This document shows positions 3,478-5,340 of a stretch of DNA of 5,340 nt, in pieces. A program made the translations under genes and the position numbers. The stretch lies in the IMG/VR virus record IMGVR_UViG_2521172589_000005, one strand, 5' to 3'. The DNA is from a virus (taxonomy: Duplodnaviria; Heunggongvirae; Uroviricota; Caudoviricetes). Positions within the stretch are counted from its first letter, which is position 1. Each line of letters starts with the position of its first letter. Under the pieces are notes generated by a model, which saw only the letters and a list, made by a program, of their open reading frames with translations, did no database searches and was not told the DNA's origin.

Positions 3478-3714
3478 GTGAAATTAGCTATCAGGCTTCA
3501 ATTGCCGCTGGCATTCGCATCAAAGGAGAGGAGCATGGAAATAAAACCAGAGGATTAGTTAAGCAATATCGTTTTATTTCCGATAAAAGAGGATGACCCT
3601 CGTAATCAGGTTAATTTTCTTTATGAGCCATCGGAAAGACCATATTGCCATCACGCTTCTGTCCGGGTTGACGAAAAAGAGCGTCAGGTCCGCTGTAAAA
3701 TCTGAGGTGCAGTT

Positions 3715-3891
3715 GTGGAGCCATTTGACTGGATGCTCTCTGTGGCGAAAAGAGAAACCAGACTGGCAGATGATGTAAGGCTCTTGCGCCAGGAGGAACG
3801 GGAAAGGCGAAAAAATATAGAAAAGCTAATTCAGATTGAGCGTAACGGGAAAGCGCGGATACGCAGGGTGACAAAATCCAGAACTGAATAA
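3715..3891 (+). CDS. Small basic, coiled-coil-like protein, 58 aa (hypothetical); below the ORF-track cutoff
   Basis: GTG at 3715 with GAGGTG Shine-Dalgarno 5 nt upstream. Product VEPFDWMLSVAKRETRLADDVRLLRQEERERRKNIEKLIQIERNGKARIRRVTKSRTE, stop TAA 3889-3891. Competes with the listed minus ORF 3611..3943, whose translation looks non-protein-like. Confidence 0.4.
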   Translation: MEPFDWMLSVAKRETRLADDVRLLRQEERERRKNIEKLIQIERNGKARIRRVTKSRTE

Positions 3892-4159: not shown

Positions 4160-4336
4160 ATGGCTGATTTTGGTTCAACTAAATACAACGTCGGTTTTGA
4201 AGAATGGCATGAACTGTTAATGGACTATGCAGAGTTACGTGGTGGCAGTGCTGCTGATGCTGAAGCATGGCGTGATGATTATGAAGCAGGAAAAACTCCG
4301 GTCGAAGCATATTGTGATGAGTGGGGCGATGAATGA
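4160..4336 (+). CDS. Very acidic small protein, 58 aa (hypothetical)
   Basis: GAGGAGG Shine-Dalgarno at 4144-4150 and ATG at 4160. Product MADFGSTKYNVGFEEWHELLMDYAELRGGSAADAEAWRDDYEAGKTPVEAYCDEWGDE has 16 Asp/Glu in 58 residues. Stop TGA 4334-4336 overlaps the next ATG (ATGA). Confidence 0.55.
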   Translation: MADFGSTKYNVGFEEWHELLMDYAELRGGSAADAEAWRDDYEAGKTPVEAYCDEWGDE

Positions 4337-4648
4337 GCGAGGTTAATTATCAGGAAGGGCATGAAACGGCGGGGCAAGCAAAAACAGTGGCATGGCGATA
4401 TCGCTACGTGAAAAAAAGGCGTTACGGACTTTCAGGGGAAGTAGTGGTCTGGTGACTGGAAATATGTACCGAAAAAAGAGGATTGTAACGATAGGCAGAA
4501 CTATGAAATTCAGGCCTTATTCACTGCCCCGCCAGTCCCGGTTACATCAGAAGAACTGGTTAAAGCTGTGCACTTTTATGAACAACTAAAACGCGAAAAT
4601 CCACCAGCATCCGGAAACCTGATTACAGATTCCCAGATAAGGCAATGA
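4333..4648 (+). pseudogene. Frame-split gene: 40-codon ORF (4333..4455) abutting a 67-codon protein-like frame (+1, 4445..4648) that has no start codon; frameshifted pseudogene or recoding candidate
   Basis: ATG 4333 is coupled to the upstream stop; this frame ends at TGA 4453-4455 in a TGA-C context. The +1 frame opens at 4445 and encodes ...DWKYVPKKEDCNDRQNYEIQALFTAPPVPVTSEELVKAVHFYEQLKRENPPASGNLITDSQIRQ with no ATG/GTG/TTG before codon 42. The track ORF 4392..4589 in the third frame looks non-coding. Confidence 0.35.
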
Positions 4649-4818
4649 GCTACCTGGCGCAGAACGGGCTGATAAGTATGGGGAATGTTTTACGATGAAT
4701 ATTTAGACTAAAGAGTTTGTAACGCTATGTAAGTGATTTTTTCTGGTTTAGATATTTATATGTCCGGCTAAATTGAGGTGTGTTTAAATGTTATTGCACA
4801 TTGATTGTAGGGGGAATA

Positions 4819-4998
4819 ATGAAAAACGCATTGCAGTTTTTGTTTGTTGCGTTCTGGTTGTTCGCATCATGTATGCCCATCATCTTCACAGCAAGGTATA
4901 TGGAAAAAGTTGATGTTTTGATATTAATATTTGGATATATAAATGCCCTTTTTTTAGGGGTGTTCATGGCGGTCATGTGCATTGAATACTGGCGGTAA
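4819..4998 (+). CDS. Small hydrophobic protein, 59 aa, two predicted transmembrane helices (hypothetical)
   Basis: Internal ATG at 4819 of track ORF 4780..4998, with AGGGGGA Shine-Dalgarno 4 nt upstream. Product MKNALQFLFVAFWLFASCMPIIFTARYMEKVDVLILIFGYINALFLGVFMAVMCIEYWR has two hydrophobic segments of about 20 residues. Sits in a visibly AT-rich islet (about 4680-5000). Confidence 0.55.
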   Translation: MKNALQFLFVAFWLFASCMPIIFTARYMEKVDVLILIFGYINALFLGVFMAVMCIEYWR

Positions 4999-5052
4999 AT
5001 ACAGCGAACTCCATTGGTTTAGTTGGATATTTACTGTGCTGGACAAAACGGT

Positions 5053-5080
5053 TTGCGGGGAAATCTTAGTTAAGTAGAAT
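5053..5080 (+). promoter_or_regulatory. Putative sigma70 promoter of the hok mRNA
   Basis: -35 TTGCGG (5053-5058), 16-nt spacer, -10 TAGAAT (5075-5080). Predicted start near 5087, immediately upstream of the tac-like element. Confidence 0.5.
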
Positions 5081-5087
5081 GACTGCG

Positions 5088-5255
5088 GGTGCTTGAGGCT
5101 ATCTGCCTCGGGCACGAACACCAACGGCAGGTAGAGAAAAGCCCCAGTTAACATTACGCGTCCTGCAAGACGCTTAACATTAATCTGAGGCCAATTTCAT
5201 GCTAGACACATGTAGGTTAGCCTCTTACGTGCCGAAAGGCAAGGAGAAGCAGGCT
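5088..5255 (+). promoter_or_regulatory. hok mRNA leader with tac-like 5' element and Sok-target region
   Basis: CTTGAGGCTATCTGCCTC (5092-5109) closely resembles the 5' tac element of plasmid R1 hok mRNA (CTTGAGGCTTTCTGCCTC, from memory). TAGCCTCTTAC...GCAAGGAGAAG..GGC.ATGAA upstream of the start likewise parallels the R1 mok/hok initiation region. AAGGAG Shine-Dalgarno at 5241-5246. Confidence 0.55.
5140..5207 (-). ncRNA. Putative Sok-like antisense RNA (boundaries approximate)
   Basis: On the minus strand: -35 TTGCCT (complement of 5237-5242), 17-nt spacer, -10 TAACCT (complement of 5214-5219), the same layout as the R1 sok promoter (TTGCGC-17-TATCCT). Transcript would be antisense to the hok leader. 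The 3' end is not defined; there is a GCGTC/GACGC hairpin near 5157-5172 but no clean U-tract. Confidence 0.4.
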
Positions 5256-5340
5256 ATGAAGCAGCAAAAGGCGATGTTAATCGCCCTGATCGTCATCTGT
5301 TTAACCGTCATAGTGACGGCACTGGTAACGAGGAAAGACC
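5256..5340 (+). CDS. hokD: Hok-family type I toxin, N-terminal 28 codons only (gene runs off the window end)
   Basis: ATG at 5256 with AAGGAG 9 nt upstream. Translation MKQQKAMLIALIVICLTVIVTALVTRKD matches the HokD (RelF)/Gef N-terminus and transmembrane segment as I recall them. Location on the dicC side of a Qin-like prophage fits hokD. Confidence 0.8.
   Translation, partial: MKQQKAMLIALIVICLTVIVTALVTRKD

What the first reader, a model, noticed from the sequence alone, without database searches (positions are those of the whole stretch)
5050..5340. Hok-family toxin locus with its own promoter, tac-like leader and a probable Sok promoter; upstream ATG lies in frame with hok
Unlike the K-12 hokD (relF) copy, which sits downstream of relBE and, as I recall, lacks the sok regulatory elements, this copy has no relBE upstream and carries a leader resembling the plasmid R1 hok/sok system, with a convergent antisense promoter (TTGCCT-17-TAACCT). 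The mok-like ATG at 5199 is in the same frame as hok (57 nt upstream) rather than in the overlapping alternative frame typical of mok, which would give an N-terminally extended Hok if used.
Basis: partly seen in the sequence, partly recalled or inferred. Interest (0 to 1): 0.6.

Follow-up and report, generated by a model that had tools for sequence, protein, structure and literature searches.

The report
Intact prophage hokD/sok toxin-antitoxin locus
The end of the window is the first two-thirds of an ordinary, already annotated hok/sok-type RNA-regulated toxin-antitoxin cassette in an E. coli lambdoid prophage, and the "unusual" in-frame upstream start codon is the usual arrangement for this branch of the family.

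Summary
The hok ATG is at 5256. An ATG lies at 5199, 57 nt upstream and in frame, behind a GAGG Shine-Dalgarno. TTGCCT-17-TAACCT sits on the minus strand, and no relBE lies upstream. Rfam's hok/sok model matches 5087-5261 at 107.8 bits (E 1.3e-24). The stretch is 100% identical to RefSeq loci annotated hokD. Its leader is 95% identical to hokW/mokW/sokW of phage 933W/Sp5, a tested type I toxin-antitoxin system. Extended through an identical genome, the ORF is an intact 51-codon hok. The first 12 nt of the predicted mRNA pair with a 3' fbi box just before a terminator. The predicted 71-nt Sok has a free 5' tail covering the mok start, followed by a stable hairpin.

K-12 hokD does lack all of this, because relE replaces everything up to 14 nt before hok. 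The in-frame mok, however, is not a peculiarity. K-12 mokC/hokC and mokA/hokA, and 933W mokW/hokW, are annotated the same way. In a survey of related loci, 27 of 35 with a recognisable mok have the ATG at -57 in frame and 8 have it at -58. Only the canonical R1 leader type is out of frame. Verdict: already known, low interest.

The parts
5045..5340 (+). hok/sok cassette. The left boundary is where similarity to the 933W hokW locus begins. The cassette runs off the window end, and about 140 more bases are needed for the rest of hok, the fbi box and the terminator.
   Evidence: hokW-type phages match from query base 56, which is window 5045; for the continuation in identical locus L001.
5053..5080 (+). 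Putative hok mRNA promoter: -35 TTGCGG 5053-5058, 16-nt spacer, -10 TAGAAT 5075-5080.
   Evidence: Read. Both hexamers are identical in 933W hokW. Not called by the consensus scan. Transcription not tested.
5087..5098 (+). Predicted 5' end of hok mRNA and tac element GGGUGCUUGAGG.
   Evidence: The Rfam model starts at 5087. In the full-length fold, nt 1-12 pair with nt 375-387, CCUCAACGCACCC. After removing the 3' 40-50 nt, the 5' end refolds into a local hairpin at 5089-5115.
5087..5261 (+). hok mRNA leader matched by Rfam RF01794 ('sok'). The match is on the sense strand.
   Evidence: 107.8 bits, E 1.3e-24, full model 1-157.
5137..5207 (-). Predicted Sok antisense RNA, 71 nt: a 15-nt single-stranded 5' tail complementary to the mok start region, a long hairpin, then GGGGCUUUU.
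   Evidence: Coordinates transferred from the sokW misc_RNA of 933W. Fold -28.7 kcal/mol, z -5.1, 0 of 200 shuffles as stable.
5187..5201 (+). mok translation initiation region: SD GAGG 5187-5190, ATG 5199-5201.
   Evidence: The GAGGC + ATG motif is conserved at -57 or -58 in 35 of 41 related loci.
5199..5340 (+). mok reading frame, in frame with hok. It would give a 70-aa Mok-Hok product and runs off the window.
   Evidence: Same arrangement as annotated mokW and mokC.
5214..5242 (-). Putative Sok promoter: -35 TTGCCT 5242->5237, 17-nt spacer, -10 TAACCT 5219->5214, start about 5207.
   Evidence: Read. Window 5206-5255, which contains both hexamers, is identical to 933W hokW. Mutating the sokW promoter abolished antitoxin activity, and sokW RNA was seen on Northern blots (PMC8621323).
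5242..5246 (+). hok Shine-Dalgarno AGGAG, overlapping the Sok -35.
   Evidence: This is the only leader element that K-12 hokD retains.
5256..5340 (+). hok (hokD-type) ORF, codons 1-28 of 51.
   Evidence: The identical DNA in L001 continues to an intact 51-aa ORF, WP_000813254.1 HokD. Pfam HOK_GEF E 3e-23. PHROG 251 E 7.7e-33.

Best explanation
This is the 5' part of a complete hok/mok/sok type I toxin-antitoxin cassette of the hokD/hokW lineage. It sits in the nin region (between the replication genes and rem/rusA/Q) of a Qin-like, dicB-carrying lambdoid prophage of E. coli.

Inferred mechanism, by homology with R1 hok/sok and with hokW/sokW:
1. A weak promoter (5053-5080) makes a hok mRNA of about 415 nt starting near 5087.
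2. Its 5' tac element pairs with the 3' fbi box, so the full-length RNA is neither translated nor bound by Sok.
3. Slow 3' trimming removes fbi. The 5' end then snaps into a local hairpin and the mok start region opens.
4. While the cassette is transcribed, the short-lived 71-nt Sok RNA (complement of 5137-5207, made from the promoter at 5242->5214) pairs through its free 5' tail with the mok start region. This blocks mok translation and leads to cleavage of the duplex.
5. When Sok falls (loss of the element, transcription shut-off, or prophage induction as shown for hokW), ribosomes start at mok (5199) and read through the hok ribosome-binding site. Hok is then made and depolarises the inner membrane.

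Because mok is in frame here, ribosomes starting at 5199 would make a 70-aa N-terminally extended Hok. This is the usual arrangement in this clade.

Shown here: the sequence anatomy, the homology, the predicted folds and the frame statistics. Inferred: all transcription, processing, translation and killing steps.
For: - Rfam RF01794: 107.8 bits, E 1.3e-24, full-length match at 5087-5261.
- 100% identity of 4990-5340 to RefSeq loci annotated hokD. 4711 of 5426 complete E. coli genomes have a match, and 2191 cover at least 80% of the query, leader included.
- The leader is 95.3% identical to 933W hokW, 69.5% to K-12 hokC and 58.3% to the R1 type, with the same conserved blocks.
- 933W annotates mokW, hokW and sokW at the corresponding positions.
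- Extension in identical locus L001 gives an intact 51-aa Hok, an fbi box and a terminator.
- The MFE fold pairs mRNA nt 1-12 with nt 375-387. The same 5'-3' pairing is predicted in 11 of 17 folded homologues. In Pantoea the pair shows a compensatory change, GGGCGC with GCGCCC.
- Removing the 3' end refolds the 5' end into a hairpin and raises the predicted accessibility of the mok AUG from 0.08 to 0.65.
- Sok fold: z -5.1, with a free 5' tail over the mok start.
- Pfam HOK_GEF E 3e-23; PHROG 251 'MokW-like host killing' E 7.7e-33.
- hokW/sokW was shown to be a functional type I TA that depends on RNase III and Hfq. sokW falls and HokW rises after mitomycin C (PMC8621323).
- Prophage context comes from E. 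coli 1EC213, which is 99.9% identical over the whole window.
Against: - Nothing in the sequence contradicts this reading.
- Both promoters are weak consensus matches and were not called by the scan.
- The window stops at hok codon 28, so an intact ORF and fbi are shown only in near-identical genomes, not in the source itself.
- From my own knowledge (Pedersen & Gerdes 1999), and as summarised in bioRxiv 10.1101/2025.08.07.668861, chromosomal hok loci that were tested (hokA, hokB, hokC) did not mediate post-segregational killing. Sequence integrity therefore does not prove activity.
- Nearby prophage genes are annotated as frameshifted, so the prophage may be partly decayed.
Confidence: 0.9

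Rival explanations
1. The cassette is intact by sequence but functionally silent. It would be an evolutionary passenger in a decaying prophage: hok mRNA is made but never activated, so the locus neither stabilises the prophage nor kills.
For: [quoted passage not shown]
- Neighbouring genes are annotated as frameshifted or carrying internal stops.
- Decayed copies occur elsewhere: L012 has a damaged tac, L054 a scrambled ORF, and L065 has an ISNCY transposase fragment where hok would lie.
Against: - Every regulatory element is present, and most are identical to hokW/sokW, which is active.
- The cassette is conserved with its leader in at least 2191 of 5426 genomes.
- In 1EC213 the prophage has a full gene set from integrase to terminase.
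- The HokD coding sequence is toxic when expressed; it was used as a positive control in bioRxiv 10.1101/2025.08.07.668861.
Confidence: 0.15
2. The in-frame ATG at 5199 makes this copy mechanistically different. The toxin would be made mainly as a 70-aa N-terminally extended Hok rather than through translational coupling, giving a distinct isoform with its own properties.
For: - There is no stop between 5199 and the hok stop. An SD lies 8 nt upstream, and Sok covers this start.
- The arrangement is conserved at -57 in 27 of 35 loci.
Against: - It is not a difference of this copy. mokC, mokA and mokW are annotated the same way.
- Close relatives with intact tac and SD have the ATG at -58, out of frame (L017, L018, L030, L032, L035, L036, L038), as does the R1 type. 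The frame and the 19-residue peptide are therefore not conserved.
- Pfam and PHROG profiles cover only the Hok part.
- The nucleotides of the extension are already constrained by the Sok promoter and the RNA structure.
Confidence: 0.1
3. The promoter hexamers and the upstream ATG are chance matches around a hok ORF that is really expressed by read-through from the prophage early-right operon.
For: - The hexamers match consensus only 8/12 and 7/12 and were not called by the scan.
- hok has the same orientation as the upstream operon.
Against: - The elements lie inside a 175-nt Rfam match at E 1.3e-24.
- They are conserved in position in loci from Escherichia to Photorhabdus and Pantoea.
- They are identical to the tested sokW promoter region.
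- The cassette occurs with the same left boundary in unrelated contexts. In 933W it sits near the genome end, on the complement strand of the record.
Confidence: 0.02

Closest known systems
hokW / mokW / sokW of Stx2 phage 933W and Sakai prophage Sp5
   Same: - The leader is 95.3% identical (162 of 170 aligned positions).
- The promoter hexamers, tac, SDs and Sok promoter are identical, and mok is at -57 in frame.
- The first 44 Hok residues are the same, and the fbi box CCUCAACGCACCC is the same.
- hokW/sokW has been shown experimentally to be a type I TA (PMC8621323).
   Different: - Two substitutions at 5204-5205, in the Sok 5' tail and its target, plus a few in the hairpins.
- The Hok C-terminus differs (TAYEPEE against VDYESEK).
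- The sequence after fbi, including the terminator, differs.
- The position in the phage differs: nin region here, near the genome end in 933W.
E. coli K-12 hokD (relF) in the Qin cryptic prophage
   Same: - The Hok protein is identical (51 aa).
- The 3' region with fbi and terminator is near-identical; one substitution was seen in the stretch read.
- The downstream neighbour rem is the same, followed by a DUF968 gene (ydfU in K-12) and the antiterminator gene (ydfT in K-12).
   Different: K-12 has relB-relE immediately upstream, and similarity starts only about 14 nt before the hok ATG. It therefore has no hok promoter, tac, mok start, Sok promoter or sok. The window holds the complete form of the locus.
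E. coli K-12 hokC / mokC / sokC (gef)
   Same: - Same architecture: mokC is annotated in frame, 57 nt upstream of hokC, and sokC overlaps the mokC start.
- The leader is 69.5% identical, with the same 5' GGGUGCUUGAGGCU.
   Different: - The Sok hairpin region is 18 nt shorter.
- It is a core-chromosome location rather than a prophage.
- The K-12 copy has IS186 just downstream.
hok / mok / sok (parB) of plasmid R1
   Same: - Same order of elements: tac, Sok target, mok SD GAGGC, AGCCUCUUAC block, GCAAGGAGAAG hok SD.
- The Sok promoter is in the same place (TTGCGC-17-TATCCT in R1).
- 5'-3' end pairing is present.
   Different: - The leader is only 58.3% identical.
- mok starts at -58, in a different frame from hok.
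- It is plasmid-borne, with an established role in post-segregational killing.

Membership tests
[quoted passage not shown] | Hok toxin ORF of about 50 aa with an N-terminal transmembrane helix (Pfam HOK_GEF). | tested here: met
   Pfam PF01848 E 3e-23 against a cutoff of 22 bits; PHROG 251 E 7.7e-33. Only codons 1-28 are in the window. The rest comes from the 100% identical locus L001.
[quoted passage not shown] | Conserved structured hok mRNA leader. | tested here: met
   Rfam RF01794 at 107.8 bits (gathering score 59), E 1.3e-24, full model, 5087-5261 on the + strand.
[quoted passage not shown] | mok reading frame with its own SD, starting upstream of and overlapping hok. | tested here: met
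   GAGG at 5187-5190 and ATG at 5199, open through hok. The position is conserved in 35 of 41 related loci.
[quoted passage not shown] | Cis-encoded antisense Sok RNA whose 5' single-stranded tail covers the mok start, transcribed from a promoter inside the mok/hok leader. | tested here: inconclusive
   The sequence features are present and the fold is as expected. The promoter region is identical to that of tested sokW. Transcription of this copy cannot be tested with these tools.
[quoted passage not shown] | Long-range pairing of the 5' tac element with a 3' fbi element in the full-length mRNA. | tested here: met
   The MFE fold of the 414-420 nt mRNA taken from L001 pairs nt 1-12 with nt 375-387, and the unpaired probability of nt 1-12 is 0.01. 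The pairing recurs in homologues, with one compensatory change. The fbi box lies outside the window.
[quoted passage not shown] | 3' processing, RNase III cleavage of the Sok-hok duplex, and killing when Sok decays. | not testable with these tools
   Shown for R1 (own knowledge) and partly for hokW/sokW (PMC8621323). Not tested for this copy.
K-12-type hokD (relB-relE-hokD operon form) | hok ORF directly downstream of relE, without its own leader or sok. | tested here: not met
   No relBE in the window, and a full leader is present. K-12 similarity begins only about 14 nt before the ATG. The toxin protein is the same, but the locus form is different.
R1-type mok arrangement | mok in a different reading frame from hok (ATG at -58). 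| tested here: not met
   The window has -57, frame 0. The R1 type has -58, frame 1. The -57 form is the majority in the HokC/D/W clade.

The most novel reading that the evidence does not exclude
The one-base difference between mok at -57 (in frame, giving a 70-aa Mok-Hok fusion) and mok at -58 (a separate overlapping peptide) might not be neutral. In-frame loci such as this one would then deliver the toxin as an N-terminally extended isoform, with different membrane insertion, potency or timing. The frame would act as an evolutionary switch between two modes of Hok expression.
Probability: 0.12. Interest if true: 0.35.

Novelty: already known. Interest (0 to 1): 0.1.

Why it matters
It matters little beyond correct annotation. 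The window carries the complete form of the hokD locus, which the K-12 reference has only as a relBE-fused remnant. PGAP annotates only the hokD CDS in identical genomes, leaving mok and sok unmarked.

The frame survey is a small useful by-product. The in-frame mok at -57 is the common state in the HokC/D/W clade, and the R1 textbook case is the minority. This argues that translation through the hok ribosome-binding site matters, not the Mok peptide.

By analogy with hokW/sokW, the cassette may help lysis and phage release on induction. That has not been tested for this copy.

Tried and rejected
- The consensus promoter/terminator scan found the hok terminator but neither the hok nor the Sok promoter. 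The promoter calls therefore rest on homology, not on hexamer strength.
- Fetching plasmid R1 by accession failed. Instead I searched the R1 leader sequence recalled from memory and found it at 100% identity in plasmid records, and used that for the frame test.
- The literature search for 'hokD' plus 'sokD' returned nothing. Thisted et al. 1994 (PMC395038) is not held. The primary papers on mok, tac/fbi and the chromosomal hok loci are cited from my own knowledge only.
- My automatic 3'-end finder failed for 6 of 17 loci, 933W included, so no tac-fbi pairing was scored there. A too-strict 5' motif skipped 13 further loci. That table shows recurrence of the pairing and is not a census.
- I considered whether the Rfam 'sok' hit proves the antisense RNA. 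It does not, because the model matches the sense strand, which is the hok leader.
- I considered whether the 19-residue Mok extension is a conserved peptide. I rejected this: Pfam and PHROG profiles cover only Hok, and the frame flips among close relatives.
- The two weak Rfam hits to C. elegans snoRNA families (E 0.79 and 0.89, far below their gathering scores) are chance matches.

Full report
**Observation.**
- The hok start codon is at 5256, preceded by AGGAG at 5242-5246. The window ends after codon 28 of the ORF.
- An ATG at 5199 lies 57 nt upstream, in the same frame, with no stop in between. It has GAGG (5187-5190) 8 nt before it.
- On the minus strand, TTGCCT (5242->5237), a 17-nt spacer and TAACCT (5219->5214) are positioned to start a transcript near 5207.
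- On the plus strand, TTGCGG (5053-5058), 16 nt and TAGAAT (5075-5080) precede GGGUGCUUGAGG at 5087.
- No relBE is upstream. The window's other ORFs are a lambdoid immunity/replication region: a CI-type repressor, a Cro-type regulator, a CII/YdaT-like protein, an O-like replication initiator and a Ren-like/DUF977 protein.

**Identity.** Rfam's hok/sok family RF01794 matches 5087-5261 over its full length at 107.8 bits (gathering score 59), E 1.3e-24. The match is on the plus strand, so it recognises the hok mRNA leader and not the antisense RNA itself.

Window 4990-5340 is 100% identical to many RefSeq E. coli chromosomes in which the ORF is annotated 'type I toxin-antitoxin system toxin HokD'. 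4711 of 5426 complete genomes have a match, and 2191 cover at least 80% of the query, which includes the leader.

In the phage collection the best-annotated relative is 933W. There mokW, hokW and the sokW antisense RNA are annotated at the corresponding positions. The leader (5087-5255) is 95.3% identical to hokW, 69.5% to K-12 hokC and 58.3% to the R1 type, with the same conserved blocks. Similarity to hokW starts at window 5045, which marks the left edge of the cassette.

**Context.** The whole window is 99.9% identical to a prophage of E. coli 1EC213 integrated next to ompW. Its gene order is integrase, excisionase, exonuclease, ydfD, dicB, ydfC, ydfB, repressor, cro, ydaT-like, O-like, DUF977, small ORFs, hokD, rem, DUF968, rusA, antiterminator, tRNAs, lysis genes and terminase. 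Hok therefore sits in the nin region of a Qin-like lambdoid prophage, in the orientation of the early-right operon.

**Extension past the window.**
- In L001 (identical over 4990-5340) the ORF continues to an intact 51-aa HokD. CCUCAACGCACCC lies about 60 nt after the stop, followed by a hairpin with a T-run that the scan calls as a terminator.
- Folding the predicted 414-420 nt mRNA pairs nt 1-12 with nt 375-387. This is the tac-fbi end pairing that defines hok mRNAs, and the unpaired probability of the 5' end is 0.01.
- Removing the last 40-50 nt makes the 5' end refold into a local hairpin (5089-5115). It also raises the predicted accessibility of the mok AUG from 0.08 to 0.20-0.65.
- The same end pairing is predicted in 11 of 17 homologues I could fold. 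In Pantoea, GGGCGC pairs with GCGCCC, a compensatory change relative to GGGUGC with GCACCC.
- The predicted Sok (complement of 5137-5207, coordinates taken from sokW) folds into a 15-nt free 5' tail complementary to the mok start, plus a long hairpin. The energy is -28.7 kcal/mol, z -5.1.

**The K-12 comparison.** In MG1655, relB and relE lie directly upstream of hokD. The sequence matches the window only from about 14 nt before the hok ATG onward. K-12 hokD therefore keeps the SD, the ORF, fbi and the terminator but lacks the promoter, tac, mok start and sok. The window holds the complete form of the same locus. From my own knowledge, Pedersen and Gerdes (1999) described K-12 hokD as rearranged; I could not read that paper here.

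**The mok frame.**
- MG1655 mokC (16751..16960) and hokC (16751..16903) share their stop, so mokC is in frame and 57 nt longer. mokA/hokA likewise share their stop.
- 933W mokW and hokW are annotated the same way.
- An IncFII plasmid whose Hok is identical to R1 Hok also has the ATG at -57 in frame.
- The canonical R1 leader, which I recalled and then confirmed at 100% identity in plasmid records (at least 99% in 2660 records), has the ATG at -58, out of frame.
- I surveyed 41 distinct HokD/HokC-like loci from Escherichia, Shigella, Kluyvera, Citrobacter, Pseudocitrobacter, Photorhabdus, Pantoea and others. Twenty-seven have an SD-preceded ATG at -57 in frame and 8 have it at -58 out of frame. 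Three have no read-through ATG, and in 3 the leader is replaced.

In-frame is thus the majority state in this clade, and the frame flips among close relatives that keep every RNA element. Together with the Pfam and PHROG profiles covering only the Hok part, this indicates that the 19-residue extension is not a conserved peptide. Its nucleotides are constrained by the Sok promoter and the RNA structure.

**Mechanism (inferred).** By homology with R1 hok/sok (own knowledge: Thisted & Gerdes 1992; Franch & Gerdes 1996; Gultyaev et al. 1997) and with hokW/sokW:
1. The stable full-length mRNA is locked by tac-fbi pairing.
2. 3' trimming activates it.
3. Labile Sok binds the mok start region and triggers decay.
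4. When Sok falls, mok translation opens the hok ribosome-binding site and Hok kills by damaging the inner membrane.

For hokW/sokW, Takada et al. 2021 showed toxicity and neutralisation that depends on the sokW promoter. They also showed partial dependence on RNase III and Hfq, loss of sokW and a rise of HokW after mitomycin C, and halved phage release without the locus (PMC8621323). The window's Sok promoter region is identical to that of hokW, and the hok promoter hexamers are also identical.

None of these steps was tested for this copy. The hexamers themselves are weak (8/12 and 7/12), and the consensus scan did not call them.

**Rivals.**
- The cassette may be intact but silent. The chromosomal hok loci that were tested did not mediate post-segregational killing (summarised in bioRxiv 10.1101/2025.08.07.668861), and neighbouring genes are annotated as frameshifted.
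- The in-frame start may produce a functionally distinct 70-aa isoform. This cannot be excluded, but it would apply to the whole clade and not to this copy alone.
- Chance is excluded by the Rfam score and by the conservation.

**Verdict.** This is a correctly recognised but ordinary and already described element. Novelty: already known. Interest: low.

Noticed in passing
window 4819-4998 (+): An unannotated 59-aa ORF (MKNALQFLFVAFWLFASCMPIIF...CIEYWR) lies just upstream of the hok cassette. It has two hydrophobic stretches and a purine-rich GGGGGAATA before the ATG. It has no Pfam or PHROG hit. The region 4740-5044 occurs in 1570 of 5426 E. coli genomes and carries no annotation in any sampled record. 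The ORF is intact, with 0-1 nucleotide changes, in four other strains. It may be an overlooked small membrane protein gene.
   Followed up: partly
L034 (Kluyvera sp. CHPC 1.2972) 490-600; L013 (E. coli ECDA1023): The K-12-type junction, with the relE 3' end followed by ...ttgcgttgacag directly before the hok SD or ATG, also occurs in a Kluyvera genome. There it is joined to a different Hok lineage (MKQQSWRFITLII...). The relBE-hok fusion is therefore not a K-12 accident and may have spread or recombined between hok types.
   Followed up: no
L024, L029, L062: hokD sequences 96-100% identical to E. coli sit on tiny contigs (275-431 bp) or at the edge of a 3-kb contig. These are in assemblies labelled Acinetobacter idrijaensis, Xanthomonas pisi and Candidatus Scatousia. 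They probably reflect E. coli contamination of those assemblies.
   Followed up: no
L012 (E. coli ECMA0423) about 430-600: This is a second hokD copy in one genome. Its Hok ORF is identical, but the 5' tac element is deleted or mutated (ATGTGGCTATGTGCC in place of GGGTGCTTGAGGCTATCTGCC) and an extra base puts mok at -58. It looks like a decaying copy.
   Followed up: no
window 5087-5261: The Rfam family named 'sok antitoxin' (RF01794) matches the plus strand and ends at the hok AUG. The model therefore describes the hok mRNA leader in sense orientation, not the Sok RNA. Strand calls based on it would be inverted.
   Followed up: partly
L001 6402-6410 (about 70 nt beyond the window end): The Tyr47 codon of HokD lies in GCUUACGAA, which contains a UACG motif. 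A 2026 preprint reports TadA A-to-I editing of hokC, hokD and hokE mRNAs that recodes a tyrosine to the second cysteine (bioRxiv 10.1101/2025.08.07.668861). The site is present in the continuation of this locus.
   Followed up: no
L054 (Shigella flexneri SFBU0723) 601-750; L065 (E. coli ETEC4075) about 1015: Two further defective copies. One is a hokC-like ORF whose middle is scrambled (MKQHKAMIVAPDRHLYHRRSGGAGGRKDLCEV...), consistent with paired frameshifts. The other is a locus where an ISNCY transposase fragment is annotated where hokD would lie.
   Followed up: no
window 4333-4700: The ORFs here (4333-4455 and 4392-4589) correspond to a CDS that RefSeq flags as 'frameshifted; internal stop' in identical genomes. 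A second pseudogene is flagged around window 3568-3891. Parts of this prophage's nin region therefore appear to be decayed.
   Followed up: no
L001 6531-6560 (beyond the window): The only consensus promoter-like site the scan found near the locus is TTGAAG-18-TAGAAT. It lies just after the hok terminator and, in 1EC213 and K-12, upstream of rem.
   Followed up: no
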